38,024 nucleotides of DNA from an uncultured Chroococcidiopsis sp. (GTDB lineage Bacteria > Cyanobacteriota > Cyanobacteriia > Cyanobacteriales > Chroococcidiopsidaceae), in NCBI GenBank assembly GCA_964248365.1, contig CAXTYC010000041.1, forward strand, positions 1 through 38,024, given 5' to 3'. A model generated the notes under the pieces. That model was not told the DNA's origin. It did no database searches and saw only the letters and a list, made by a program, of their open reading frames with translations. Positions 1-35,722 of the stretch are shown here, piece by piece. Position 1 is the stretch's first letter. Every line of letters starts with the position of its first letter. The position numbers and the translations under genes are program-made.

Positions 1-2179
1 AATTGGGAGCTTCAAATAGCTCTAAATCTGATTCAGTTTCTCTTGTGCTAAATAAGTCTGCACTGCTTGAGTCTAGACTAAAATCCAGTTCCTCGCTTGT
101 TAAGTCAAATTCTGCCATTAGATTAGCAGTATTCTCGACACCTGGAGCGTCAGCCGGAGCCTCAAATAGCTCTAAGTTTGATTCAGTTTCTCTTGTGCTA
201 AATAAGTCTGCACTAGTGGAGTCTAGACTAAAATCCAATTCCTCGCCAGTATCGTCAAATCCTGCTATTAGCTCAGCACTATTCTCAACACTTGGAACGG
301 AAGCTAGAGCTTCAAACAGCTCTAAATTTGATTCAGTTTCTCTTGTGTTAAATAAGTCTGTGCTGCTAGAGTCTAGACTAAAATCCAATTCCACACCCAG
401 AGCGTCAGCTGGAGTTTCAAATAGCTCTAAATTTGATTCAGTTTCTGCAATCATACTGCTGAATAAATCGCTGGCGCTAGGAGTAAGGCTCGATTCGACA
501 TCAGTAGTAATTTCAGGTGCAGGTGTTGGTGTTGCATATACTGGTGCATCTAAAAAATCATTAGAGTCACTTGATAAAGTGCATTCCAATACTGTAGTCA
601 AATCGGTTGGCTCAACAAACCAATTGTCATCAAGTTTCTGTTTTGGTTCGCTGCTATTGCTCAAAGCAAAGTCAATGTGGCTATCTACATCATTGTTCGT
701 GTCTAAGGGAACAGGGGGGAGTGCGAACGATTCTTCCTCTGAAGCAAACAAATCATCTGTACCCAAGGGGAAAGAAAATTCTTTTATGTCCAACTCAATT
801 TGAGTTGTTGTGTCAGGTTCCTCTGCCCACAAACTGCTCAAATCAGAGTTTTCTGCTGTTGCCATCGTAGATACTTCTAACAAGTCAAGATTTTTTAAAT
901 CTGCTTCTGGAGCTTTAAACAAATCACAGAATGCAGGCTCTACCTCTATTAAGTCTAGTGATGTGTCTTGAGCCTCGTCAAATAAACTGTTAAGTGCCAA
1001 AGTCTCTTCAGAGGAGATTTGGGGTAAATCGTCTTTTGAATGCTTAATTAGACTGTTTTCTAACTCATCTTCTATATTGAAGTCTAATAGATCTGAATCT
1101 TGCCAATCTTGGTTATTGTCATTTGAATTGAAAGTAAATAAACTACTTAAGTTATCTTCTGCTGCCCAATCGGTGATTTGTTCTTCTGTAGTTAACTGGG
1201 CAACATTTACTAAAAATTCTGACTCAACCGAGTTGTGTTCTGTGTTACTAAGACGTTGTGTTGTTTGTTGCTGGGCGACTTCTATTGTCTCGGTTAGTTG
1301 TTTATCTTGAGACTCAAAGTTAGTGCTTGTGTCTTCCCCATCGGATAAGAAAGTCTTTAAGGAGAGTGCTTGTAGTTGTTCGCAGGTTGCGATCGCATCT
1401 GCACGGGAGGCTAAAACTAATTCCTGTGCCTGTTTGATTTCCTTAATCACAATTGGGGCTAGAATGCGATAGGTATTGTCTAAATTAGCGATCGCGTAGG
1501 CTGCCGTTTCACACAAGGTACACCAGCCAGACAAGTTAAATTGTTCGCCCAGTTGTGCTAGCTGATTACACAATTGGTCTAGTTGTTGACGTGTTTGAGG
1601 TGTTTCTGCTTGCTTGAACAGCTGTAACATCTGCCGCAGTATTTCCGGCACACTGTTTTGAAACACTGACACCTGTGAGGCTGTGGTTGCTGGTGCTACT
1701 TGCTTTAATGTTGGAGCAGCAAAGGATTCCTCTAGCTGCATAGTACCACCAGCTTGATGCATTTGTGATTCCAGATGTTGCTCAAGAGTGGCAAACACTG
1801 GCTCCACTTCTGACATCAGACGATCGGCTACATCTTCTGTCAAGCCTGATTCACTCTGAAGGTGATCTAATAGCGCCTGCAAATTATCAAACATTCGCAG
1901 GAACAAAGACTCAATAGTTTGGTCAATTTGAATTGACTGACACTCCTTCAGAACTTTGAAAAAGTCCTCCAAACGGTGAGCCGTGCGCTGGATGCTATTA
2001 AGTCCCAGCATTGCCGCTCCGCCTTTAATCGAATGCGCTGCTCGGAAAATTTCGTTCACCATTTCCGAGTCTTTGAGTGTGTTTTGCAGATCTAGCAAAC
2101 CCTGCTCAATCGTACTTAAGTGATCTCTAGCTTCCTCAATGAAGTAGCCCAGAATTCGCTGCTGTTGTTCTGGTAACAT
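1..2179 (-). CDS. hmpE: CheA-like hybrid histidine kinase HmpE/PilL, N-terminal part (runs off the window start)
   Basis: Not in the ORF track. Manual translation from ATG at 2179 gives MLPEQQQRILGYFIEEARDHLSTIEQGLL...EIFRAAHSIKGGAAMLG (Hpt domain) followed by a long acidic linker. The frame is consistent with the repeats near position 5, and the gene lies directly downstream of the MCP. Confidence 0.9.
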   Translation of the reverse strand, partial: MLPEQQQRILGYFIEEARDHLSTIEQGLLDLQNTLKDSEMVNEIFRAAHSIKGGAAMLGLNSIQRTAHRLEDFFKVLKECQSIQIDQTIESLFLRMFDNLQALLDHLQSESGLTEDVADRLMSEVEPVFATLEQHLESQMHQAGGTMQLEESFAAPTLKQVAPATTASQVSVFQNSVPEILRQMLQLFKQAETPQTRQQLDQLCNQLAQLGEQFNLSGWCTLCETAAYAIANLDNTYRILAPIVIKEIKQAQELVLASRADAIATCEQLQALSLKTFLSDGEDTSTNFESQDKQLTETIEVAQQQTTQRLSNTEHNSVESEFLVNVAQLTTEEQITDWAAEDNLSSLFTFNSNDNNQDWQDSDLLDFNIEDELENSLIKHSKDDLPQISSEETLALNSLFDEAQDTSLDLIEVEPAFCDLFKAPEADLKNLDLLEVSTMATAENSDLSSLWAEEPDTTTQIELDIKEFSFPLGTDDLFASEEESFALPPVPLDTNNDVDSHIDFALSNSSEPKQKLDDNWFVEPTDLTTVLECTLSSDSNDFLDAPVYATPTPAPEITTDVESSLTPSASDLFSSMIAETESNLELFETPADALGVELDFSLDSSSTDLFNTRETESNLELFEALASVPSVENSAELIAGFDDTGEELDFSLDSTSADLFSTRETESNLELFEAPADAPGVENTANLMAEFDLTSEELDFSLDSSSADLFSTRETESDLELFEAPN
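7..447 (-). repeat. Intragenic 150-bp (50-aa) tandem repeat in the CheA linker
   Basis: Units beginning GAGCTTCAAATAGCTCTAAAT.. recur at about 7, 157 and 307, with a partial copy at about 411. On the minus strand they encode ELDFSLDSSSADLFSTRETESDLELFEAP-like blocks. Confidence 0.85.
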
Positions 2180-14585: not shown

Positions 14586-17500
14586 TTATTCGACCTTGAA
14601 CTTACCTACACTGGTTTGGAGATCAGCCGCCATTGTCAGCAACTCTTGGAAGGCAGCGGCTAGGTGCATAGAATCAACAGAGGTTTTATTGGCAATGTTT
14701 GCCACTTCATTCATGGTTTGAGTGACTGACTGGGATTGCTGAGTTTGGATTTGGGTTGCTTTGGTGATGCCTTCTACTAGCTGGCTGATTTCGGCTGTAG
14801 CTTCAACGATCGCATTGAGACTGCTGCGGGTTTCTTTAACTAAGTCAGTGCCTGTAACCACTTGTTGAATACCTGTCTCCATTGCCTTGCTCACTTGGGC
14901 AGTACCTGCTTGAATTTCCTGCACTAGCGCGGCAATTTCTGTGTTAGCTGCTGCTGACTGTCTGGCTAGACTTCGCACTTCATCTGCCACTACGGCAAAC
15001 CCTCGCCCGTATTCCCCTGCTCTTGTTGCTTCAATCGAAGCATTTAGCGCCAATAGCTGAGTTTGAGTTGTGAAGTTACCGATCAAATTTACTACTCCCG
15101 AAATCTTTTGCGAGGATTGCGACAGACGCTTAATCAGCTTGCCTGTTTCCGCTACAGTTTCTCGAATAGCAAGAATTCCATCCACAGTCCGATTCATCGC
15201 TGCATCTCCAGCCCGTACAGTTTGGTTTGTTCTTTGGGCGGCTAATTCCACTTGTTGAGCATCGGCGGCAACAACTGCACTAGAATTTACCATTACTTGA
15301 ATTTTCTCTAGAGCTAGGTTAAGGGACTGTAACTGTCTATTAGCCTGAGTCGCTAGCGCTGACAGGTCTGATTCACTTGCTTGACAAGTTTTGGCAACTG
15401 TGCAACTAGCGGATTGCACTTGCACTACAGTTTTACGCAAGCTTTGCAGGGTGTTGTTATAGGCATCGGCGATCGTACCGACCTCATCATCTGTAATTGG
15501 AGCGCGAACGGTTAAGTCTCCATTCAAAGCTGGTCTTACCGCGATCAGCAGTTGAATAGCCCGCTGTTGTAGCTGTTCTTTTGTTTCTTTCTCTCGTTGG
15601 GCAATCTGCGTCAATTGCTCAGACTTCTGTCGCACCTGTTCTACATACTCAGCCTGTTTTAGGACTGCACCTACTTGTAAGCCAATCTGGGCTAAGCTAC
15701 TCACTTCTACCTCTTCCCAATCGCGGGGACTGGAGTTTTGATAAGCGCCTAGTAACCCCCAAAGCTTCTGATTCACAAACACAGGCACAATCATGTAAGC
15801 TCTGACTTGCATTTGCTCCAGTAGTTCGACATGACAAGGAGAGTGTCCGGCAGTGTAGATATCATTTACAGCCAGGGTTTCGTTGTGGCGATATCTTCCC
15901 CCTTGGGTTTCTTGCAAGTGGCTGTCTGAGATGATTGGCATAGTATCGAGCAAGCGACTCCAGCTGTGCGCAACAGATTCCGCTACAAACTCACCGCTCC
16001 AGTCAGGGTTAAATTTATATAGCGCTACCCTATCGACTCCCAACAGATAGCGGACATCTTGTGTCGTAATTTGGAAGATGGTTTTACTGTCGAATGAAGA
16101 TCGCAACAGCCTACTAGCAATTTTGGTCAAGCCTTGCTCTCGTGCAGCAGATGCAGCTAATTTGTCAGATGAAGCACGAACTTGCTGCAATGCTTCTGCT
16201 TGCTGTAGAGCAATACCCAGGGGATAGCTTACTTTGATCATGCATTCGATTTCCCATTCTTCCCAGTGGCGAGGAGCAGAGTTTTGATAAGCAGCCATCA
16301 AGCCCCAGAGTTTATCTCCTTGGAAGATGGGAACATTTATGTAGGCTCTGGCTTGGTATTTTTCTAAAGTTTCTAGGTAACAGGAGGAGAAGCCAGCAGC
16401 GTAGATATCATCAACTCGTAAAAACCGTTCACCTTTGGTATAAATTCCACCCTGAGTTTCTTTAACATAGGTATCAGTCGAAGTATGGGGAACAGGTAGG
16501 TTATTTACAACACAGCGATCGCCTACAACTTTATTACTCTTCAAGCTAGCATCATGTTCCTGTTCTTTGAGCAGTGCTAGCCAACCTGGAGCAACCGATT
16601 CAGCAACAAATTCACCACTCCAATCAGGATTGAAACGATAAAGTACTACGCGATCGGCTTTTAGCAACTGTCGTAATTCTCGTGTAGCAGTTCTAAAGAT
16701 GCTCCCAATATCTAGCGACTGCCGAATTTTATCAATAATACGGGCGATCGTACGCTCTAGTTCAGCAGATTTAGCGATCTGATCGACTTTAAGTTGAAGT
16801 TGATTCCGAACTTCTGCTTGCTGTAAGGCAATACCCAGGGGGCTACTTAGCTGTAGCATAATATTAATTTCCCCTTCTTCCCAATGTCTGGGACCGGAGT
16901 TGTGATAAGCGCCAAGTAATCCCCAAAGTTTATTATCTTGAAAAATCGGTACAATTATGTAAGCTCTAGCTTGGTATTTTTTTAAAGATTCCAGGTAACA
17001 GGGAGAAAAGTCAGCAGCGTATATATCATCAACAGATTTAAATTTTTCCCCTTTAGCATAGTCACCTCCCCTAGTTTCTTGCAGGTAAGTATCAGTATCA
17101 CTGGTAGAGTAAGCTGTTAAATCCTTCAAAGTACAGCGATCAAAGTTAGTTCTGTCTGCTTTCAATACTTGCTCATGCTCTTGCTCTGTAATTACCGAAA
17201 CCCAGCCAGCGGTGACAGATTCTGCTACAAATTCCCCACTCCAATCCGAATTAAAGCGATAAATTACTACTCGATCGGCTTTGAGCAAATGTCGCAATTC
17301 TTTGGTAGCGGTGCGGAAGATACTATTAATATCGGGCGAGCGCTGGATTTTCTCAATTACTTTGACCAGGACTTTTTGCTGCTGTGTAACACTTTGGAGT
17401 TGGGCGCGATATTCAACTGGTTGTAGGTTTAAGCTTAGCTCGGCGACAGTTTGATACAACAAATTAATCTCATTTTCCTGCCATTGCCGAGAGCTAGAGC

Positions 17501-18188
17501 ATTGCTGTACGACTAGCAAACCCCATATTTGACCTTCTAACACAATTGGCATAGCTAAGCTTGCTGTCACCTGAAATTTCTCCAAGAGTTGAACTTGGTA
17601 GGGACTCAGGTTTAACTGATAAATATCATCCAGCACTACTACTTGCTGCTGCTGGTAGGCTGAATCATCTTCAGCTCCAAACATCACTGCTGATATTGTT
17701 TCACCTAAAGTAGGGGTATAACCGCTTATCATTGACTCTGCTAAAACTACACCCCGATCTTTATCCTGAAAACGGTAGATGATAGCTCGATCTACTTGTA
17801 AATGGTGATGCACACAGGTAACTGTAGATTTGAGTAGAGTATCAACATCCGATGCCATCCGCATCTGCTCTACAATGGCTAATAATCGGGTTCGTTCACT
17901 TTTAAAGCTTTGCGAAGTTGCTGTTAGTTGATCTTTAAAACCTATTTGTAAAAGTTGCGCTAATTTCTCTAGCTGACGAAACTTAACTTGGGCTTCTGGG
18001 GTATTCAAAAATCCCTCTTTTTCTAGTTCAGATCGGAAAGCACTAACTAATGCCATCGGTTGATTTGCATCAAATTCGTCTCTAGCTCCCGTGCCTACTG
18101 CGCCGTTGCCAAGAGCTTTAGTTTGATCGTGTTGCCCTTGATTTAACTTAGGTTCCCGTTCTAGATTAAATAAATGTTTAATTTGCAT
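14586..18188 (-). CDS. Multi-GAF cyanobacteriochrome methyl-accepting photoreceptor, PixJ/PtxD type
   Basis: Four GAF domains ([32 protein letters not shown]), three with a bilin-binding Cys (FSPCY, FSSCY, HSPCH), plus a C-terminal MCP domain. No obvious transmembrane segment. Confidence 0.92.
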
Positions 18189-26861: not shown

Positions 26862-27650
26862 TAAGAGCTGATTCGTAAAGAAAATCTAAAGAGCATCGAA
26901 TCTGGCTAGGATCAAGTTATAGGCTAAATTCAGTCTAATTGTGTTGCTGCCGATGAGCCGTCTACCCACAATTGAAAACCAAGAGCGCCAACCCTACCCA
27001 AGTGATTTAAGTGATGCCGAATGGGTCATTTTGAAGCCCCTGCTACCTGCACCAAAGGGTTTTGGACATCCTGTGGAAGTGGACTTGCGAGAAATTCTCA
27101 ACGGAATTTTTTATGTGCAACCTTGGGATGTCAGTGGGAAATGCTGCCCCATGACCTGCCTCCCAACACCACCGTGTATGGCTACTTTCAGAAATGGCAA
27201 CGTAGAGGCATCTGGCAGGTTCTTCACGATCAGGTGCGTCATCAACTGCGAATTGAGCGCACGGGCAAGATGAACAATCAAGCGTAGACAAGAGCCGATT
27301 CTCAATCAGTCAAGACAACGGAAAAAAGGGGGAGGTATACGGTTTCGATGGTGGCAAGAAGGTTAAAGGGCGTAAGCGCTATATCGTCGTAGATTCTCAA
27401 GGCTTGTTACTCGGTGTTTTAGTTACCCAAGCCATTAGACGTTTCCATAAATTAAAGTTCCAGCCCTAATAACAATTCGCGTAACGCTCTCGCATCACAG
27501 ATCACCTAAGAGGGCTGGAACCTTAATTTTTGGAGAAATCTAATGCCTCAGAACGACTAGGGGCAGTTGTAGTGCTGCATGAAGTTGTGGAGCAATTGTC
27601 CAAGTTGAAAGTGGTTTGGGTAGACTCTGGTTATTCGCGAGAAAACTTTA
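26862..27650 (+). mobile_element. Truncated IS5-family element with a transposase pseudogene
   Basis: YPSDLSDAEW..LREILNGIFY, WEMLPHDLP, DSQSVKTTEK, GFDGGKKVKGRKR..VDSQGLL, VWVDSGY. Frameshifted, interrupted by a hairpin unit at 27434 and cut at 27650 by an IS630 end. Left boundary approximate. Confidence 0.85.
27434..27544. mobile_element. Hairpin unit (MITE-like) inserted in the IS5 transposase
   Basis: 34-bp imperfect inverted repeats ATTAGACGTTTCCATAAATTAAAGTTCCAGCCCT / AGGGCTGGAACCTTAATTTTTGGAGAAATCTAAT. Removing 105-108 bp rejoins VTQA|NASERLG. Confidence 0.85.
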
Positions 27651-28156
27651 TACCAATTCTCTAAAAAGTGGCTACAGATGATAAAATAAGATTAAATTAG
27701 ACAATCAGATTTAAAATGGCTGGGACATATCACCTAGAAATCAAAGAGACTGTAGAAGAACTCAAGGAATTACTCACAAGACAAAAAACTGTATATTCTA
27801 AACAAAGAGTGCAGCTATTGTATCCCCTTAAAACAGGGCATAGTCAAACGATTTCTCGCAAGCGCACAAATTATAGGTCGTAACCGAGTCACCTGGCACA
27901 AGTGGATTAGACAGTATAAAGCTTTTGGAATTGAAGGACTATTAGAAAAAAAATATTCGCTCTTGTTGACCAAGAGTAATTCCCAGGTGGGCAGAAAAAG
28001 CACTCGAGAAAAGATTACACGAAGCACAAGGATTTAATGGTTATCAAGAAATTGTCAGGCAGGAACAAAACTTGCTCGTAAATACTTGCTACAAGACAGT
28101 TCACAAGCTCGTTTATGAACGTTTGGAATCCCAGCCGAAAGTACCACGTCCCCAAA
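27651..28156 (+). mobile_element. IS630-family element, left end and HTH ORF remnant
   Basis: Left end TACCAATTCTCTAAAAAGTGGCTACAGAT. ATG 27716 gives MAGTYHLEIKETVEELKELL..., frameshifted, breaking off after KVPRPQ. Homologous to ORF 33034-33534. Confidence 0.8.
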
Positions 28157-30292
28157 AGATTTCTCCAAAAATTAAAGCAACGACCGAATAACATGAACGC
28201 GTAACGCGAAAGCACAAAGGACAACCCAAGAGGGTAACAACTGAGGCAGAAAAATAAAGTCTTAGAATATTGCCTTAAAAAAATACAGCCCAGGAATGTG
28301 GCGATAAAAAATAATGGCAACCCGCCGTTCTCCCCGAATGCATTCGGGGATCTGGCGGACAGCGATGCCTAATACAACACAAACAACCCGTGATGCCGAC
28401 AAATTCCCTCTTGAGGGAAGCCATTATTTTTCTAGCCTTGCCTCCCATGCCCTCTTTGAGTGGGAGGCGAAGGAACCTGAAATTTTAGGTCAGGCAAATG
28501 TTCGTTATCTGTTTGCCCCCGTGAGTTACGAGGGGTGTCTGAAGCCTGACCTAAAATTTTTGCGCTCCTTTCCAGGTCTGTTGTGAACAATGGACTATCT
28601 ATTGGGTTTAAGGGCTGGGAGAATAGTTTAAGAAAATTGGGCAATCGGGCGCAAAAAGGTGCAATTGATTTATCAACAAGTACGATTACTTGAAAATAAA
28701 AGCACCTTTTTGCCCACCATCAGAATTCGTGACCGACTTATCCAAAAAATAGGGCAGGCTTAATAACCCCACGAGTAAACAAGGGGGCTTCACAACTATC
28801 GAACGAAGCCTGCCCTATTTTTAAAGAAGGAATTGGTGAGGAGCCGAAACGACAGTCGCATTTGAGGATTGCCCAATTTTCTATAGGTTCAAGGTAACGG
28901 CTAGCTGTATTTTTTGGCGAGGCAACCGCGTGAAAAATAGTGGGAAACCGATGTAAACCTTAAAAAATAGAGACAGCCGCTGTGTTTAGAGTTATCTGTT
29001 GGTATTACGAGGTATCGTAGTTGAAGGCTGTCTCTATTTTTTATGTCGTTTTTTCCTGGTTGGGAGGCACACCGCATGAAAAATAAGGCAGGAGAGGCTC
29101 AGCTTGAAAAATTGGCGGAACCAAATTTATCGTTATCTGTCGGGAATAACCAGATCTCGTGTTGTGTTGAAGGTTCCGCCAATTTTTTGCCGCCACGTCC
29201 CTTGGGCTTTTTGAGTAATCTGTGGTGCATAGTGGCTTATCTGTTTTGTATCAAGCCCGAAGGTTTTTTGGGAGGTAAAGCTTGAGAAAAAGTTGGCCGC
29301 AAATCTATCGTTATCTGTCGGTCGTGACGAGTTAATGGTGTTGTTTGAAGCAGGCAACTTTTTCTTGTCGCAGTGTTCACTCGTCGCCATTACATTTGGC
29401 GCAAAAAATAAAAATTTGACCGTGTTTTAAAGTTTATTCGTTGGTAGTGAGAGAGCTGGATGTGACGGTCACGCATCTCCGGAAAAAATGGGGCAGGCAA
29501 ATTTATCGTTGTCTATGGGTAGTAACGAATTGTCGTGTTGTGTTTACGCAGCTCCCATTTTTCTAGGTTCACCCTCGTCAAATTTTTATTTTCAAGCCTG
29601 ACTTATATTCCCGCCCTCTTTAAGTGATGTGTGGCGCATAGTGGGTGAAGGATTTGGTTTAAGGGTTGGGAGGCATGGCTTGGAAAAAAGGGGAACACGA
29701 CCTACCTTAAAAAAATGAGACATGAAATGTTGCCTGAAAAAATATGTCGGTCCGTGTATTAGGTTATCTGTTGGTATTACGGGGGATTTGTGTTGACGGA
29801 CCGACATATTTTTTGGCTAAGGCTCTCCTGCCTTCTATGGAGGTTATCTGTTGGTGCGGGAGTCGATGCCAAAAAATATGTCAGGCTTTTTGTCTTGTCG
29901 AAAGGTATATATGGTTATTGCGTGTTGTGATGAAGCCTGACTTATTTTTTTTAAGGCAATATTCCAAGAGGGATCTTTTAAACAAGGCACGGGAGGTAAA
30001 AGCTAGAAAAATAAGTCAGGCTTTTTGAGTGGTTGGTAATGTATAGAATATTGCCTTAAAAATAAGGCGAACCCTCTTTGAGTTATCGTGTTGACATCAT
30101 GGTTATTAGTGTTGTTATTAGGGCTGAAGCCTTATTTTTGGCATCGGCTCCCATATTCGGGGATCTGTGTTGTTATAAGCCTGACTTATTTTTTGTCGCG
30201 TTCCTTCCAAGTCTCATTTTTTTATGTCGGTAAATCCTGGGAAGGCTCTTTTGGGTTATTTGTGTTGCTGGGCGTGTTATCTGTTGGGTTTA
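28157..30292. repeat. Nested array of about 16 A-tract/T-tract hairpin units
   Basis: Perfect or near-perfect arm pairs include 28480-495/28544-559, 28631-646/28867-882, 28745-761/28806-822, 28961-978/29026-043, 29107-122/29172-187, 29737-755/29796-814, 29871-888/29933-950, 30007-023/30177-193 and 29708-721/30211-224. Confidence 0.9.
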
Positions 30293-30765
30293 GAGGGCAT
30301 TTCTAAATTAATCGTTAAGTTTTTTCTTCCAGTTCACCTAACCGTTGCAACATCAACCGAATCATTGCCCCTTGGATTATTGCCTCACTCACTTCTGGTA
30401 AAAGTTCATAATCCTTGCTTAAACGTCGGTTTTGATTAAGCCAGCCAAAGGTTCGTTCCACAACCCATCGCTGGGGTAAAATCACAAACCCTGATTCAGA
30501 GCGCTTAACCACTTCAACTTTTGCGCCACACAACTGCTCGACAACTCGTGCGAAGTTCTCTTTTTGATCACCTTGATCCACCCACAGCAGTTGCAATGCC
30601 TTGGCTTGTTGTGCATCTAAATCGTGTACCGCAATCACCCCACCTGGTTGCTCTGAGCAGTTGGCATTGAGGACGACTACCGCCATCAGCAACCCCAAGG
30701 TATCGACCAAGAGAAACCGCAAGCGTCCTTTGACTAACTTGCCACCGTCGAAGCCATAGACCTCC

Positions 30766-30811
30766 ACGCCAGTTGCTTCAAGTCGGCACCGCCGCCCAAC
30801 GCACTGGCTCC
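30766..30811. repeat. Small dispersed repeat-like insertion at the IS5 frameshift site
   Basis: GCCAGTTGCTTCAAGTCGGCACCGCCGCCCAACGCACTGGC (GCCAG/CTGGC ends) splits the GAAAAAAGGG|GGAGGT motif that is intact in the IS5 copy at 27321. Confidence 0.7.
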
Positions 30812-31084
30812 CTTTTTTTCCGTCGTTTTGACCGACTGACTATCGATACTGCCTGCAGCGAAAGAATGCTTGCCCACTTGGCAGGGTAACTCTCGTCGCA
30901 AAGAGTCATGAATCTGTTGCCAAATGCCTTTTCGCTGCCACCGGCGAAAGTATTTGTAGACTGTTTGCCAGGCGGGTAAATCTTTTGGCAAGTCGCTCCA
31001 AATGCAACCATTGTGTATTTGGTAGAAGATCGCATTGAGAATTTCTGTGTGATCTACTTGGCGCTTGCGTCCCCTCGCTTTAGG

Positions 31085-31928
31085 GGTAGTGCAATTTTGT
31101 AAAGGATAGAGGAAAATAGCCAGGAGTTGAGTTTTTCCCCGAATGCTCAGGTATGAAACCCTATTTGATTTGTCCAACTTGCGGTTCCGATGACATCATG
31201 AAAAACGGTACAACTCGTCGGGGCAAACAAAACTACAAATGCCGTGATTGCGGTCGTCAGTTTGTCGAAAACCCGCAGTGGAGACCGATTCCTCCTGACA
31301 GCAAAGCGATGATAGACCGCTTGTTGCTAGAGCGAGTTCCTTTATCAGGCATTGCCCGTGTAATGCAGGTATCTGAGGACTGGTTGCAAGGATACGTCAA
31401 CCGTTGCTATGAGACAGTGCCACATAAGGTGCAGGTGCAACCCAAAAACAAAGTCCGCTTGGAAGTGCAGATGGACGAGTTGTGGTCGTTTGTGGACGAC
31501 AAAGGCAACAAGCAGTGGGTATGGCTGGCAATTGATGTGGCAACTCGTGAGATCGTTGGGTGCTACATCGGCGACCGTTCTAGAAATTGTGCTGTTGCTT
31601 TGTGGGAATCGATGCGCCTGAGTGTATCGACAGTGCGCGGTCATCTACACCGATTACTGGGAGGCTTATGCGACGGCACTGCCACGTCAACGTCACCGAG
31701 CTGTAGGTAAGGAAAGTGGATTGACCACCTACATTGAACGGTTGAATAACACACTCAGGCAACGGGTGTCACGCTTAGTGAGAAAAACATTGTCCTTCTC
31801 CAAGAAGTTGGATAATCACATCGGTGCGATCTGGAATTTTATTCATTACTACAATCAGAGGATTCAAGCGCAGCGAGCTAGTTGTTAAGAAGATTATTTT
31901 TCTCCATCCTTTACAAAATACCACTACC
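31085..31928 (+). mobile_element. IS1-family insertion sequence (InsA/InsB, ORFs 31153-31710 and 31622-31888)
   Basis: Inverted repeats GGTAGTGCAATTTTGTAAAGGAT / ATCCTTTACAAAATACCACTACC. Motifs CPTCGS..KNG..GKQNYKCRDCGRQF, QMDELWSFV, YTDYW and IERLNNTLRQR. Frameshift near 31615. Confidence 0.92.
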
Positions 31929-32079
31929 CAACTGTTTTTCTGTGCTCACCTACTTAAGCTTTTATTTAGAAATGCGCTCTCATTGACTGTTTTCAAATAT
32001 TCCTCAATCTAGTTGCTCAACATTTTGCTGATTCCGGATTAATTATTCAACTTGACAACGGCGCATTTCATTAAATTGA

Positions 32080-32350
32080 CTCCTGAAAAATTAAGCCAGC
32101 CAAAGAAGGCTTGAAAAAATAAGTTTGACTGTCAACAAAGATCTCTCATTCACAACCAGTCAACTCAATACACGGTCAAACTTATTTTTTTGCGCCAAAT
32201 GTAATTTTGAAACCCCACGATTAATCATGGGGAGCAACAGATTTACATTTGACGCAAAAAATAAAAATTTTACCGTGTTTTAAAGTTTATTCGTTGGTAG
32301 TGAGAGAGCTGAATGTGACGGTAAAATTTTTATTTTCAAGCCTGACTTTA
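32080..32350. repeat. Second cluster of hairpin units (two in opposite orientation inside an outer pair that closes at 33603-33618)
   Basis: Arm pairs 32114-132/32172-190 and 32256-276/32318-336. Outer AAAAATTAAGCCAGCC (32086-101) pairs with GGCTGGCTTAATTTTT (33603-618) across the IS630. Confidence 0.85.
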
Positions 32351-32355
32351 ACTCA

Positions 32356-33595
32356 TACCAATTCACGAAATGCCTGATACAAATAAAGCTTCCAGAATAA
32401 AATCCCATCCAGTGATAGAAGCGACAACTCAATCAGTTAGCTTGTCGAGAATTTGAGCCAGAGCTGCTCTCAATTCATCTAAAGTCTCAAATGATTGCCA
32501 CCTCAGGTATTTCTTCATTTCTTTCCACAATCTTTCAATCGGATTGACTTGGGGAGAATGGGCAGCTTGAAACAGTAAAATGACGGTTTCGGGAACTTGT
32601 AATAACTCACAGCTATGAAATCTGCCTTGGTCTAACTGAATAATATGTATATCATCAGGATAAGCTTGTACAAACTGTGCCAAAAACTGCTCAAAACAAA
32701 CAGTATCCAGGTGAGAATACTCAAAAAAAAGTGGTCTCCTGTCAGCGGTCCACAATTCCATACAGATAAAATGCCTTGGGTGTCCATTGTACTTGTCCGA
32801 CTGGTTTAACTCCTTTTAGTGTTAATAACGTTTCCTCAAAATAATGAAACAGCCTTCAAGTGCGAATACCTGCTGTGTACGAGAGATTTTTAAATAAGGC
32901 TGTTTCATTATTTTTAGGATTCCATATAACTTTCTGCCGGTAATCGTCTTCAGACCAAAGCGACTTTCATCTTCACACCAGTAAGGAACATTTTTGTCTT
33001 GACTTGGTGTGACTAAGTACTCCAAAACGACATCTAGCAATTGAGGCAGTTTTTTTTAAAATTTTCTTGTGCTTGGGGTGATTGTTTGATGCTTTGCGGA
33101 CGTGGCACTTTCAACCCCGCTTTAAGTAGGTAATGTACTGTGTCATGTACCACTTTATAGGACCCATCAATTCCTTCCGAAGCTTTTAACCAAGTTTGTA
33201 CTTCTCCATAACTTTCAAATCCCTCTGGTTGTGCTAGTTCCAACCGCCGCCGTTCTCTGACTTCTAAAGGAATAATTTTTGGTCTTTCTGGACGAGGAGG
33301 CACATCTAATAACCTATCTATTCCACCTGCTCTGTATTGCCGTAGCCACCGTTGTACTGTGACTCGACTTTTTCCCAGTACTACTGCTAAATGCTGTACT
33401 GTCTCTACTTGTTGAGTTTTTAGTAAATACAATGCTTGAATACGCACCAACGCAAATGCTTCTTTTTGTTGCTTTAACAACTGTTTTAACTCGGATGCTG
33501 TCTCTGCTATATTGATTTTAACTACGCCTGTCATCGGGAAAAATAGTTCATAGCTGTTTTTCTACTATTTGTATCATATACAAAGTGAATTGGTA
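32356..33595 (-). mobile_element. IS630-family insertion sequence, both ends present, transposase disrupted
   Basis: TA-flanked inverted repeats TACCAATTCAC..TGATACAAATA at both ends. HTH ORF 33034-33534 and DDE pieces (DESRFG, QLDQGRFH, SPQVNPIERLW). Confidence 0.92.
32826..32929. mobile_element. Hairpin unit inserted in the IS630 transposase
   Basis: 19-bp perfect arms AAAATAATGAAACAGCCTT (32838-856) / AAGGCTGTTTCATTATTTT (32896-914). Removing 104 bp (TAA duplicated) restores GRKLTLKGVKP. Confidence 0.88.
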
Positions 33596-33630
33596 TCAGA
33601 AAGGCTGGCTTAATTTTTTTAGGAAACATC

Positions 33631-33736
33631 TCATAAAGCTAAACGTCTTCAAGTACCATATCAGATCATTTTATTATTTCAGAGTCCCCATTCTCCACAA
33701 TTAAATCCACTTGAGCAAGTTTGCCAATATATGGAG
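33631..33736 (+). pseudogene. IS630 transposase DDE fragment
   Basis: HKAKRLQVPYQIILLFQSPHSPQLNPLEQVCQYM. Confidence 0.75.
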
Positions 33737-34984
33737 CAGTGACACGATTTCTGATAATGCCAAAATACTTAACTAGACAGAATGCTTTCCATCCAATGTA
33801 TGTCACTTATTTCTTGACACATACAGGCTTGAAGAAGCGCAAAGTTTATCTAGTAGTTTATTACCCCATACTTTAGGAATATCTACTAGGTGCAAAATCA
33901 AATAAGCTATTCCCTGTAGCATAAATTTGTATAGTAATACCATTGACATTTTTTGTAATGAGATGGTCAAGTTTTAGATGCATCTTTAGAAACTTCCATA
34001 GCAACTCGATTCCCCACGGCATCGATAAATTTCCAGAATTTCTTCATCAGTAATAACTCCTTCTCCTGTTCGAGGTAAATTTGTCACTAATCGATACTCT
34101 GCCTTCGTTTCCAAATCACAGAATTGGATAACTCGGTATAACCCCCGCTTTTGACGCATTTGGCGAAAAGAAAATAAGACAACCTTTAAACCACACAAAC
34201 TATCCGTTATGCACCACCTACCCATTAAAGAAGGTTGTCTTATTTTCTAAGCCTTACCCCCGCGACCAGTCCCTACCTGCGTTAATTCAGATTCTTCATG
34301 AAATTATAGCTTGTATTTATTCCCAATTCGGAGAACAAAATACTTATCTGCTTCCACTGTATTTTGTAAAAACTTTAGACCAGCAAATCCTCTATCCATC
34401 ACCCCAACATCATTTTCTGGCAGGGCATTCATCATCTTTTGACCATATTTATAATCATGGTTTAACCCAAAAATAATGAAATTCTCCTCAGTAACACCAG
34501 TGTTTAAGTGCAAAGAACTAAAAAGTTTGAAGGAATGATATCCCAAACTCCACAACAATTTACCTGTTAAAGAGATTGTGGTTGAATCTATCGGACAATA
34601 GCATATTTATCATTAAGTCTCTTTCGAGAAACTAGCCTAGATAGTTGGCGGTAAATTTGTTGAAATATCTGCTGGCTCCGATGAGAGCTAGCTTTAGAGA
34701 AAGTAGAGATATTTACAGAAAAGCCTGTGTTGTTTAATCGCGCGAAATTTATCTCTCATACTTGTTAAGCTTTTATCCATTGCATAGCTTAACCAACACT
34801 AGACAAACAAGCGGGTGTTCAAAACTGGATAATCGTTTTTAGGTAGGGGCGCTAGAACCTTTACAGGCAATCTTGGGAAACGAACTTATAATCACAAGCT
34901 ATTACTATTATTCTAAAATCCGCCCAAGTTTATCAGATTTTGGGTTGATTTTTTATGTGTTTTTTTTAACATTCAACACTTCTG
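33737..34984 (-). mobile_element. IS4-family element with a transposase pseudogene
   Basis: Minus strand reads LPKNDYPVLNTRLF, PIDSTTISLTGKLLW, GVMDRGFAG and YRLVTNLP..IYR, with several frameshifts and stops. One end is CAGAAGTGTTGAATGTTAA (ending 34984). The other end is not recognisable. Confidence 0.8.
34157..34264. mobile_element. Hairpin unit inserted in the IS4 transposase
   Basis: 18-bp perfect arms AGAAAATAAGACAACCTT (34169-186) / AAGGTTGTCTTATTTTCT (34231-248). Removing 108 bp rejoins QVGTG|RQKRGLYRV. Confidence 0.88.
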
Positions 34985-35159
34985 GAAAATTAACTAAACA
35001 AATTATTGCATCTATTGCTGGAAGGCAATATATTTTAGAGGCTTTATCTGTTGCCGCCTTTTAGAGAATTGGTATTATCCAATCCAATCATCGCATCAAT
35101 TACTCAACGACAATATATCCTGCTTGCTTTATCTGTTGCCCTATTTTAGAGAATTGGTA
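34985..35159 (+). mobile_element. Two tandem IS630 right ends with C-terminal coding remnants
   Basis: IIASIAGRQYILEALSVAAF* and IIASITQRQYILLALSVALF*, each followed by TTTTAGAGAATTGGTA (ends 35074 and 35159), complementary to the left end at 27651. Confidence 0.8.
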
Positions 35160-35722
35160 TAACTCAATTACCTCAACAGATAACGTAACAATTGCCTTCC
35201 CCAATTTTTCGAGCCTTGCCTCCTACGGGTTCAAACCAAACAGATAACTCAATAACACCGTGCCGTCAACTCAAAAAACCCACCCTCTTTTTCCAGGTCC
35301 TAGCCTCGCAGAGCTTCATACCCCGTCCTTCACCCACTATGCACCACAGACTACTCAAAAAAGCTCTCCCATATTTTTTAGGCAATTTTCACTCGTCTCA
35401 TTTTTTTAGAGTTACATCGTGTTCCCCTATTTTTTGCAACGCCCAGTTGTACCCTCTTAAAAAGATCCACGTCACCAACTCGAAAACCCTAATACAGGGT
35501 AATACCATGAGCATAAAAATAAATCCTGCCTGCGTATTGGGTATATTGGTTGTGAGCGGAGGATCTTGAAAAGATGGCAGGATTTATTTTTAAAGTCTCA
35601 TCTTTTGGCTGGCATTATTTTTCACAAGATAGCCTCCCTTGGCTTTAAACCTTTGTAGATTATTCCGCAGTGCGACACAGATATTTTTAGAAGCCTGCCA
35701 TTATTTTTCTTCTTCTTCCCTC
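35160..35722. repeat. Third cluster of hairpin-family sequence (mostly right arms, one complete unit)
   Basis: Complete pair 35514-530/35576-592. 35326-35435 is an inverted homolog of about 29617-29746. AACAGATAAC loop motifs present. Confidence 0.8.

What the first reader, a model, noticed from the sequence alone, without database searches (positions are those of the whole stretch)
27434..35722. Unrecognised family of ~105-110 bp mobile hairpin units with variable but self-complementary stems
Seen: at least 20 units share one plan: a short flank, AAAAA(T) plus a 7-13 bp stem, a 40-50 nt G/T-rich loop (often GTTATCTGTTGG...TGTTGAAG), the reverse-complement stem plus TTTTT, and a short flank. 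The A-tract to T-tract span of uninterrupted units is nearly fixed: 80 (28480), 78 (28745), 83 (28961), 81 (29107), 78 (29737), 80 (29871), 77 (32114), 81 (32256), 77 (32838), 80 (34169) and 79 (35514). Stem sequences differ between units (AGAGACAGCC, TGGCGGAACC, ATGTCGGTCCGT, AATGAAACAGCC, AAGACAACC, AAATCCTGCC) but match their own partner arm over 16-19 bp. Established: ordinary MITEs conserve terminal repeat sequence, whereas integron attC sites and REP/IS200-IS605 ends are recognised as folded ssDNA. Inference: these units are mobilised by a structure-recognising enzyme encoded elsewhere, or through an RNA, or one arm is re-templated from the other. No cognate enzyme gene is visible in this window.
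Basis: partly seen in the sequence, partly recalled or inferred. Interest (0 to 1): 0.9.

Follow-up and report, generated by a model that had tools for sequence, protein, structure and literature searches.

The report
Foldback mini-transposons with self-matching, flipping hairpins
The region is a junkyard of small non-coding jumping elements from a cyanobacterium, each a long DNA hairpin whose two arms stay matched although every copy differs, probably because one arm is recopied from the other during DNA replication.

Summary
A structure model finds 14 full units there, plus 5 weaker or partial ones. The same model finds 87 loci genome-wide. Strict hairpins number 53, against 0-1 in each of five shuffles.

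These are mobile units of about 105-115 bp. Three comparisons of filled and empty sites, and one nested insertion, show that the unit moves with 13-20 nt of conserved ends outside the A and T tracts. So they do have conserved termini, in at least five classes. One class carries a TA duplication of the IS630/Tc1 type. Another is bounded by TTCCC on both sides.

The stems are no more variable than the loops (mean pairwise identity 0.55 against 0.56). What is special is that each unit's arms match each other: 34 of 65 loop-defined copies, against 3.4% of cross pairs.

Close paralogs show compensated changes, a matched indel, hybrid arms, and a 41-nt loop inverted relative to the ends. These are the two known marks of template switching between inverted repeats.

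No transposase partner, Rfam family or published description was found.

The scan has reported the same process before, on other DNA.

The parts
27450..27528 (-). Hairpin unit. The longer imperfect arms are 27430-27467 and 27511-27548. It lies beside IS4/5-type transposase remnants.
   Evidence: E 0.0072; I1: 38-nt arms, 84% complementary; for the neighbouring DUF4096 fragment at 26941-27273.
28480..28559 (+). Hairpin unit, 80-nt span, with 16-nt perfect arms.
   Evidence: I16; E 0.0065.
28745..28822 (-). Hairpin unit, 78-nt span, with 17-nt perfect arms.
   Evidence: I15; E 0.00068.
28961..29043 (+). Hairpin unit with a beta-like left end and a family-A loop (GTTATCTGTTGG...).
   Evidence: I11; E 1e-11; DNA fold z -6.1; for the flanks.
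29107..29187 (+). Hairpin unit with alpha ends, nested inside another unit's arm.
   Evidence: I17; E 1.8e-6; z -3.45.
29285..29365 (+). Hairpin unit with decayed arms (88% complementary).
   Evidence: I21; E 0.0063.
29390..29469 (+). Left part of an alpha-class unit that is split by a nested insertion. It is a paralog of 32243-32322.
   Evidence: D6: 80 nt, 96% identical; partial match 29417-29471.
29470..29576 (+). Nested 107-nt unit with delta ends (hairpin 29484-29562). It is inserted into the right arm of the unit above and is flanked by GT on both sides.
   Evidence: D6 and D18 define the break against the intact paralog; E 0.024; sequence.
29577..29604 (+). Right part of the split alpha-class unit.
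   Evidence: D18: 28 nt, 96% identical to 32321-32348.
29737..29814 (+). Hairpin unit with 19-nt perfect arms and a family-A loop.
   Evidence: I5; E 9e-12; z -7.59.
29871..29950 (+). Hairpin unit with a family-B-like loop.
   Evidence: I12; E 2.3e-6.
30058..30139 (+). Hairpin unit with epsilon ends (GAATATTGCC ... GGCATCGGCTCC, about 30046-30157).
   Evidence: E 0.0016; sequence; the same ends occur in G005 and G014 units.
32114..32190 (-). Alpha-class unit whose loop is inverted relative to its ends.
   Evidence: I10; E 1.1e-10; comparison with C84:1811.
32243..32348 (+). Intact alpha-class unit (hairpin 32258-32336). Its 41-nt loop is inverted relative to its ends, compared with the close paralog C66:2644.
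   Evidence: I6; D6, D18; E 1.4e-7.
32838..32914 (+). Hairpin unit inserted in an IS630-type transposase gene (32429-33534, minus strand).
   Evidence: I2; E 2.1e-8; DDE_3 and HTH domains on either side; an identical copy with the same flanks is at C37:23489.
34169..34248 (-). Hairpin unit with a family-B loop.
   Evidence: I9; E 2.9e-6.
35514..35592 (+). Hairpin unit with 17-nt perfect arms.
   Evidence: I13; E 1.4e-10; z -4.8.
29202..29260 (+). Partial unit (loop and one arm).
   Evidence: model positions 11-69, E 0.12; D12.
35450..35501 (-). Weak partial match. Membership is uncertain.
   Evidence: model positions 13-67, E 0.81.
30315..31177 (-). Context: IS4/5-type transposase in two ORFs. 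Not part of the family.
   Evidence: DDE_Tnp_1, DDE_Tnp_1_2, DUF4096.
31153..31888 (+). Context: IS1-type transposase in two ORFs. Not part of the family.
   Evidence: Zn_ribbon_InsA, DDE_Tnp_IS1.

Best explanation
The units belong to a diverse superfamily of non-autonomous mobile elements (MITE-like foldback elements) of about 105-115 bp in a cyanobacterial genome.

Each unit has:
- class-specific ends of 13-20 nt
- an A5-6(T) tract
- a 7-13 bp arm
- an unstructured G/T-rich spacer of 37-49 nt
- the complementary arm
- a T tract

The whole unit, ends included, moves in trans. The transposases are not encoded in the window and probably differ by class (inferred). Gamma units behave like Tc1/IS630-type MITEs, with a TA duplication. 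Beta units are bounded by TTCCC on both sides. Alpha units show no duplication.

The window is a dump of dead insertion sequences, where such units pile up and insert into one another.

The matched but copy-specific arms are best explained by DNA-polymerase template switching between the two arms during replication. This is a known process that recopies one arm from the other (arm homogenisation) and can invert the spacer. Here it is inferred from its footprints, not observed. Selection on a folded form during transposition may add to it.
For: Mobility of the whole unit:
- The beta unit at C14:120330-120438 interrupts a VOC/glyoxalase-type gene. It is absent from the same site in five congeneric genomes, which carry a single TTCCC there.
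- An alpha unit in G005 is absent at G000 C52:17768/17769, inside flanks that are 91% identical.
- The alpha unit at C8:62938 sits in an IS5-like transposase gene that is uninterrupted in the G003 copies.
- A 107-nt unit is nested in a paralog in the window.

Copy number and spread:
- 87 loci in this genome.
- At E<=0.001, G005 has 8 matches, G014 has 10 and G038 has 1. The other 24 of the 28 family genomes have none.

Ends:
- 11 gamma copies carry TA on both sides in 10 cases and TC on both sides in 1 (rows).
- 8 of 10 parsed beta units have at least 4 of 5 TTCCC positions on both sides. One has TTCCT on both sides.

Arm matching without ascertainment by structure:
- 34 of 65 loop-HMM hits pair with their own arms at a score of 13 or more. 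Only 142 of 4160 arm pairs taken from different units do so.

Footprints of template switching:
- Compensated differences between close paralogs. There is 1 pair in C66:2644 vs C37:49177, and 3 pairs (plus 1 unpaired change) in C7:146800 vs C58:12493.
- C37:6072 and C37:333 differ by a block that includes a matched indel in both arms, while their 41-nt loop is identical.
- The window paralogs differ by G:C to T:A at one arm position.
- Spacer inversion: C66:2644 and window 32259 align through arms and loop in one orientation, and through ends and arms but not loop in the other. Two further pairs behave the same way.
- Across classes, the loop lies forward or reverse relative to the ends in 12 and 5 alpha units and in 11 and 7 beta units.

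Published mechanism: template switching between short inverted repeats causes arm homogenisation and spacer inversion (PMC8604942, abstract and passages read; PMC7202029, start of abstract in the listing).

Pairing is not needed for gamma mobility: hybrid-arm copies occupy separate sites, each with its own TA.

The stems are not hypermutable. Differences per aligned column in 11 sister pairs are 48/399 in the flanks, 35/346 in the stems and 42/507 in the loops.
Against: - No transposase with matching ends was found, so trans-mobilisation is inferred.
- The spacers here are 37-49 nt. The documented spacer inversions I read were 2-5 bp, and shorter spacers favour switching (PMC8604942).
- Hybrid-arm copies persist. 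The two arm variants of the gamma class assort as if independent: (1,1) 4, (1,2) 4, (2,1) 2, (2,2) 1 (rows). Homogenisation is therefore not fast.
- No orthologous unit shared with another species was found, so change of the arms in place was never seen directly.
- Compensated changes between paralogs could also come from selection on active lineages before insertion.
- Gamma units show no loop flips (11 forward, 0 reverse).
Confidence: 0.6

Rival explanations
1. The units are moved as folded single-stranded DNA by a structure-reading enzyme encoded elsewhere (an HUH/Y1 transposase as for IS200/IS605 and REP/RAYT, or an integron-like tyrosine recombinase). The arms co-vary because only lineages that keep the hairpin are copied.
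For: - Arm pairing is kept across about 45% sequence divergence.
- The alpha insertions show no target duplication in two comparisons.
- Beta units sit next to a fixed pentamer, TTCCC. This could be read as insertion beside a specific short target.
- Y1 transposase genes exist in the genome: 5 matches, two of them within about 1 kb of units.
Against: - Y1 genes occur in 26 of the 28 family genomes, while the units were found in only 4.
- The Y1 gene near units on C40 and C7 is truncated and has its own, different end hairpin.
- The units have one central hairpin, not two subterminal ones.
- The gamma class has TIRs and a TA duplication, as double-strand cut-and-paste elements do.
- Hybrid-arm gamma copies still reached new sites.
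- The loop lies in both orientations relative to the ends. That is hard to reconcile with strand-specific recognition.
Confidence: 0.2
2. The hairpins are kept at each site by selection on the host. For example, they could act as bidirectional transcription terminators (A tract, GC-containing stem, T tract) or as small structured RNAs.
For: - The A-tract, stem, T-tract layout resembles a two-way intrinsic terminator (sequence).
- The hairpins are far more stable than shuffles: z from -2.76 to -7.59 in 10 units, with 0 to 3 of 200 shuffles folding as well.
Against: - The loop of 37-49 nt is unstructured in the folds. From my own knowledge, this is far longer than terminator loops.
- Many units sit inside dead transposase genes or inside each other, where no host function is expected.
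- One unit breaks a host gene.
- Loop orientation is free.
- There is no Rfam match.
Confidence: 0.08
3. New copies are made through an RNA or a self-primed single strand. One arm plus the loop is copied, and the second arm is synthesised by fold-back priming at each transposition.
For: - Perfect arms that differ between copies, including a matched indel.
- Most copies are singletons: only 8 of 2278 pairs have loops at least 90% identical.
Against: - The ends outside the hairpin are asymmetric and conserved. Fold-back synthesis would make them symmetric.
- Hybrid-arm copies exist and have spread.
- Differences between sister copies are ordinary substitutions spread over flank, stem and loop at similar rates.
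- No reverse transcriptase link was sought or seen.
Confidence: 0.05

Closest known systems
Bacterial and cyanobacterial MITEs (for example Nezha and the Anabaena and Microcystis MITEs, as summarised in PMC3184786, passages read)
   Same: - Short, non-coding, multi-copy and predicted to fold into a stable hairpin.
- Filled and empty sites occur between related genomes.
- They insert into genes and into insertion sequences.
- One class (gamma) has TIRs and a TA duplication.
   Different: - These units are smaller (105-115 bp, against 130-435 bp for the listed cyanobacterial families).
- No parent IS with the same ends was found.
- At least five end classes share one internal plan.
- Copies are very diverged (mean identity about 0.56) and yet keep matched arms.
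Template switching at quasipalindromes and short inverted repeats, giving arm homogenisation and spacer inversion (PMC8604942; PMC7202029, listing; the Ripley 1982 model as cited there)
   Same: Both footprints are present. There are multi-base, compensated arm differences, including an indel, and there is spacer inversion between close paralogs.
   Different: - The spacers here are 37-49 nt, against 2-5 bp in the yeast cases I read.
- Here the process acts on a mobile family of about 90 copies.
- It is inferred from comparison of paralogs, not seen along a lineage.
REPINs and REP elements with RAYT transposases (PMC3116915, passages; PMC3733652, listing only)
   Same: Hairpin-forming, non-autonomous, dispersed and about 100 nt long.
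   Different: - REP sequences are conserved and carry a GTAG or CGTC head. Here the arms differ between copies and start with an A tract.
- No RAYT gene flanked by units was seen.
Small dispersed repeats (SDR) of Nostoc punctiforme (Elhai et al. 2008, PMC2527708). The paper is not held. I know it only from citing passages and from memory.
   Same: Very small mobile repeats of filamentous cyanobacteria, of unknown mechanism, often nested in other repeats.
   Different: - SDRs are 21-27 nt modules (recalled).
- SDR5 inserts inside the HIP1 octamer (PMC4390886).
- I could not compare sequences, so an overlap with the loop motifs is not excluded.

Membership tests
MITE | Short, non-coding and present in many dispersed copies | tested here: met
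   The units are 105-115 bp. There are 87 loci on 40+ contigs. The centre of a unit lies inside an ORF of at least 150 aa in 3 of 87 cases.
MITE | Filled and empty sites that show insertion of the whole unit | tested here: met
   and the nested insertion.
MITE | Terminal inverted repeats | tested here: inconclusive
   The gamma ends, AGTAGGTCGTC... and ...GACGAGTGTACT, are inverted repeats. The alpha and beta ends are asymmetric and pair only loosely.
MITE | Target-site duplication | tested here: inconclusive
   Gamma has TA in 10 of 11 copies and TC in 1. Beta has TTCCC on both sides and a single copy at the empty site. Alpha shows none in two comparisons.
MITE | A parent insertion sequence with the same ends | tested here: not met
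   This draft assembly holds no pair of matching ends that encloses a transposase. The one candidate, on C18, is an IS inserted into a gamma unit.
Template-switch product (quasipalindrome correction) | Multi-base arm changes that restore or keep complementarity | tested here: met
   (pairs C7/C58, C66/C37 and C37:6072/C37:333).
Template-switch product (quasipalindrome correction) | Inversion of the spacer between unchanged arms | tested here: met
   three pairs; alpha 12 forward and 5 reverse; beta 11 forward and 7 reverse.
Template-switch product (quasipalindrome correction) | Change seen along one lineage at one site | not testable with these tools
   No orthologous unit exists in the related genomes held. 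No reads of the strain were found.
REP / REPIN with RAYT | A conserved REP sequence with a GTAG or CGTC head, and a RAYT gene flanked by REPs | tested here: not met
   The arms differ between copies and begin with A5-6. Two weak Y1 matches (C1:339385 and C39:38678) were not examined further.
IS200/IS605-derived element | Two subterminal hairpins, no duplication, insertion next to a fixed 4-5 nt target, and a Y1 transposase whose presence tracks the element | tested here: not met
   The units have a single central hairpin. Y1 occurs in 26 of 28 genomes, against 4 with units. The TTCCC beside beta units is the only compatible trait.
Integron attC site | R''/R' core sites, extrahelical bases, cassette ORFs between sites, and intI nearby | tested here: not met
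   The stems are perfect, without bulges, and start with A tracts. The units abut or nest, with no cassette ORFs between them. I did not search for intI.
Rfam RNA families | A match to a curated covariance model | tested here: not met
   One search gave only two chance-level miRNA matches, at 19.5 kb. There were none in 27-36 kb.
SDR families of Elhai et al. 2008 | Identity to the published 21-27 nt consensus sequences | not testable with these tools
   The paper is not held. The loop motif was not found in the held literature in a relevant paper.

The most novel reading that the evidence does not exclude
The internal cassette (A tract, arm, G/T-rich 40-nt spacer carrying two direct copies of a GG.TATCTGT-like motif, arm, T tract) may be a module in its own right. 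It may have been acquired by mini-transposons with unrelated ends and insertion chemistries: TA-duplicating, TTCCC-duplicating and non-duplicating.

Two routes are conceivable. The cassette could insert into the centre of short palindromic cores; bare beta and epsilon cores do exist. Or a host or transposon factor could need it. It would then be a structure-defined passenger shared between transposon families, kept in shape by self-templating.
Probability: 0.15. Interest if true: 0.7.

Novelty: new variant of a known kind. Interest (0 to 1): 0.42.

Why it matters
Hairpin covariation is usually read as proof of a selected RNA or single-stranded DNA structure. This family suggests another route. 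About 90 old, diverged copies of a mobile element keep 16-19 bp arms matched, and their spacers flip. That is what a replication slip between inverted repeats would produce with no selection at all.

If this is confirmed, three things follow:
- It gives a natural, many-copy read-out of template switching in a cyanobacterium, at spacer lengths of about 40 nt, far above those documented.
- It warns against inferring structure-reading enzymes or functional RNAs from covariation in palindromic repeats.
- It adds a set of small elements that break genes and insertion sequences in this genome.

Tried and rejected
- **Rfam.** A scan of the whole window at E<=1 found nothing relevant.
- **Elhai 2008.** The paper is not held, so the SDR comparison rests on citing passages and memory.
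- **Literature on the loop motif.** A search returned only unrelated primer hits: 32 papers held a term and the 15 listed were all unrelated.
- **Pattern scan of 185,579 species genomes** for the canonical loop-A unit. It returned 7 stretches. I read only the one cyanobacterial hit (L116), and it is not a hairpin unit. By their titles the other six come from non-cyanobacteria, and I did not inspect them. The window's own genome is left out of that scan.
- **BLAST against plasmids.** A 1.9 kb stretch of the array gave no match.
- **A longer copy with the same ends enclosing an ORF.** None was found. The gamma pairs about 1.1 kb apart enclose unrelated junk. The C18 pair is an IS inserted into a unit. 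The C22 hit has no ORF. The delta pair on C54 came from loose motif matches and I did not follow it.
- **Y1 transposase as partner.** Its presence does not track the units.
- **The idea that the loop alone is the mobile part, inserted into pre-existing terminators.** I rejected this for two reasons. The insertions include the ends. Short-loop A/T-tract hairpins are few, about 20 of the 116 found by a looser hairpin scan.
- **The idea that the stems are hypervariable.** I rejected this.
- **DGR-like adenine mutagenesis.** I considered it and dropped it by inspection. The differences are ordinary substitutions, and no statistic was run.
- **Sequencing runs.** No RNA holder is listed. There are only two metagenome runs with a small share of the words. 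I did not lay reads.
- **Position relative to ORFs**. This is uninformative, because an inserted unit breaks any ORF.

Full report
**What is there.**
- Between 27.4 and 35.6 kb the window carries a dense set of hairpins of one plan: A5-6(T), an arm of 7-13 further bases, 37-49 unpaired G/T-rich bases, the complementary arm, then (A)T5-6.
Their arms are 16-24 nt at 94-100% complementarity.
- A covariance model built from 44 copies of the genome, run over the whole window without filters, finds 19 distinct places. Fourteen are full-length at E<=0.01, and all lie within 27450-35591.
- As single-stranded DNA, ten units with their ends fold into the expected long hairpin. The z-scores run from -2.76 to -7.59 against 200 shuffles each, and the loop stays essentially unpaired.
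- The surrounding DNA is a graveyard of insertion sequences: fragments of IS4/5-, IS1- and IS630-type transposases. Units sit inside these fragments and inside each other.

**It is a genome-wide family, not a local array.**
- The window is contig C41 of a 5.58 Mb, 102-contig assembly.
- A strict hairpin rule finds 53 hairpins in the genome, against 1, 0, 1, 0 and 0 in five dinucleotide shuffles. Of the 53, 45 span 76-82 nt.
- The model finds 93 matches at E<=0.01, which I resolved to 87 loci. Only 150 of about 1995 first-look candidates were scored, so this is a lower bound.
- Of the 87, 25 lie on contigs under 20 kb, which hold 6.5% of the genome.
- Among the 28 genomes of the same family, matches at E<=0.001 occur in this genome (80), in one congener G005 (8), in G014 of another genus (10) and in G038 (1). 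The other 24 have none.
- In a sample of 151 genomes of the order, two others have one match each. Only 31 candidates per genome were scored, and stricter filters were used.
- The units in G005 and G014 have the same plan but partly different ends and stems.

**What moves.**
- Copies oriented by their loop fall into classes by the 13-20 nt outside the A and T tracts. I call them alpha (..GGAAGCTTG | TTGCGCCAAAT..), beta (..TTTTCCGTCTT | AGAGGTTACATCGGA), gamma (AGTAGGTCGTCTG | ATGACGAGTGTACT), delta and epsilon. Of 84 non-duplicate units, 35 fit none of these at my threshold.
- The beta unit on C14 interrupts a VOC/glyoxalase-type gene. It is missing from the same site in five congeners. Those genomes read TTTCCC once there, while the filled site has TTCCC on both sides of a 109-nt insert.
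- An alpha unit of G005 is missing at C52:17768/17769 of this genome, within flanks that are 91% identical, and there is no clear duplication.
- The alpha unit on C8 sits in an IS5-like transposase gene that is uninterrupted in the G003 copies.
- In the window, a 107-nt delta unit (29470-29576) splits the right arm of an alpha unit whose intact paralog lies at 32243-32348.
- So the mobile unit includes the conserved ends.
- Gamma units are about 110 nt and 85-100% alike. They are flanked by TA on both sides in 10 of 11 copies and by TC on both sides in one (rows). This is the signature of Tc1/IS630-type elements (the family trait is from my own knowledge).
- Eight of ten parsed beta units have at least 4 of 5 TTCCC positions on both sides, and one has TTCCT on both sides.
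- I found no longer element with the same ends around a transposase gene.
- Y1 transposase genes are present, but they occur in 26 of the 28 family genomes, so they do not track the units.

**The arms.**
- To avoid choosing copies by their structure, I searched with an HMM of the loop alone. Of 65 hits, 34 have their own two flanks pairing at a score of 13 or more, against 142 of 4160 pairs of flanks taken from different units. The remaining hits are truncated or interrupted copies, hybrid-arm copies and a few false hits.
- The arms are therefore copy-specific and self-complementary.
- They are not hypervariable. Over 2278 pairs of units, mean identity is 0.56 for loops and 0.55 for the stem segment.
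- In 11 non-overlapping sister pairs, the differences per aligned column are 48/399 in flanks, 35/346 in stems and 42/507 in loops.
- The family is simply very diverged. Only 8 pairs have loops at least 90% identical.
- Within sister pairs, arm differences are often compensated:
  - one pair of changes in C66:2644 vs C37:49177
  - three pairs plus one unpaired change in C7:146800 vs C58:12493
  - a block with an indel in both arms of C37:6072 vs C37:333, whose loops are identical
  - a G:C to T:A change between the two window paralogs
- Against this, hybrid copies exist. The two gamma arm variants occur as (1,1) 4, (1,2) 4, (2,1) 2 and (2,2) 1 (rows). Several beta-class units carry arms of two different types.
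- Hybrid gamma copies sit at separate sites, each with its own TA. Perfect pairing is therefore not needed for that class to move.

**The loop flips.**
- C66:2644 and the window unit at 32259 align through arms and loop (about 93% over that part) when the loops are co-oriented, but then their ends do not align. When the ends are co-oriented, ends and arms align and the 41-nt loop does not. Two further pairs show the same.
- Relative to the ends, the loop lies forward or reverse in 12 and 5 alpha units and in 11 and 7 beta units. It is forward in all 11 gamma units, which form the youngest class.

**Reading.**
- I therefore read the units as MITE-like foldback elements, moved in trans by transposases that probably differ by class. 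Their internal arms are kept matched, and their spacers flipped, mainly by this replication slip. Selection for a fold during transposition is a possible second force.
- The main caveats are these:
  - The 37-49 nt spacers are far longer than the 2-5 bp cases I read.
  - Hybrid arms persist.
  - No unit could be followed at one site through time, because no orthologous unit is shared with the held relatives and no reads of the strain were found.
- Bare beta and epsilon end pairs without the hairpin exist (C26:49120, C40:6302 and C40:5446 = C7:145571). There is also a beta unit whose hairpin is reduced to AAAAAATCTCATTTTTT.
- I read these as hairpin deletions. They also leave open the bolder idea that the hairpin cassette is a module that enters such cores.

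**Comparison and novelty.**
- The closest known kind is the bacterial MITE. Many are known in cyanobacteria (PMC3184786).
- This family differs in four ways:
  - its small size
  - one internal plan shared across at least five end classes
  - strong divergence with preserved pairing
  - a freely flipping spacer
- It fails the tests for REP/REPIN, IS200/IS605 derivatives, integron attC sites and Rfam families (see the membership table).
- I could not compare it with the SDR families of Elhai et al. 2008, because that paper is not held.
- Earlier notes of this scan report arm homogenisation and loop flipping in hairpin repeats of other genomes, one of them a mat cyanobacterium. I saw those notes after reaching this reading, and they are not independent evidence.

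Noticed in passing
window 32085-32101 and 33603-33619: AAAAATTAAGCCAGCC and GGCTGGCTTAATTTTT look like the two arms of one unit. They have been pushed 1.5 kb apart by later insertions: two units and the IS630-type element, which itself carries a unit.
   Followed up: partly
G000 contig C18, about 108976-110407 (not in the window): An insertion sequence of about 1.3 kb sits in the loop of a gamma-like unit. Its ends are CAGGGCAAGCGCAAGAAAA.., and it has a 10-bp duplication, CCGTGTATTA. It holds an ORF of 307 aa, which I did not classify.
   Followed up: partly
G000 contig C14, 120330-120438 (locus L051): A VOC/glyoxalase-like gene is split into ORFs of 68 and 51 aa by a beta unit. The gene is uninterrupted in five congeners.
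   Followed up: yes
G000 contigs C1, C2, C6, C16, C22 and C53: A second, unrelated palindromic repeat of about 120 bp (AAAAGTTGGGGG ... CCCCCAACTTTT, with a G-rich interior) occurs in at least 8 copies.
   Followed up: no
window 34989-35158: Two tandem 85-bp copies (75% identical) each hold TTTATCTGTTGCC, which resembles the family-A loop motif. An inverted copy of the motif follows at 35163-35188.
   Followed up: no
G000 C40:5280-5995 and C7:145405-146120: A 716-bp stretch is 100% identical on the two contigs. It holds a truncated IS200-type Y1 transposase gene and, about 220 nt upstream, the bare epsilon core GGAATATTGCC|GGCATCGGCTCC.
   Followed up: partly
window 6-455 and 15698-17357: There are three tandem 150-nt repeats at the window's start. 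There are also internal repeats of about 618 nt inside the 1200-aa ORF at 14586-18188.
   Followed up: no
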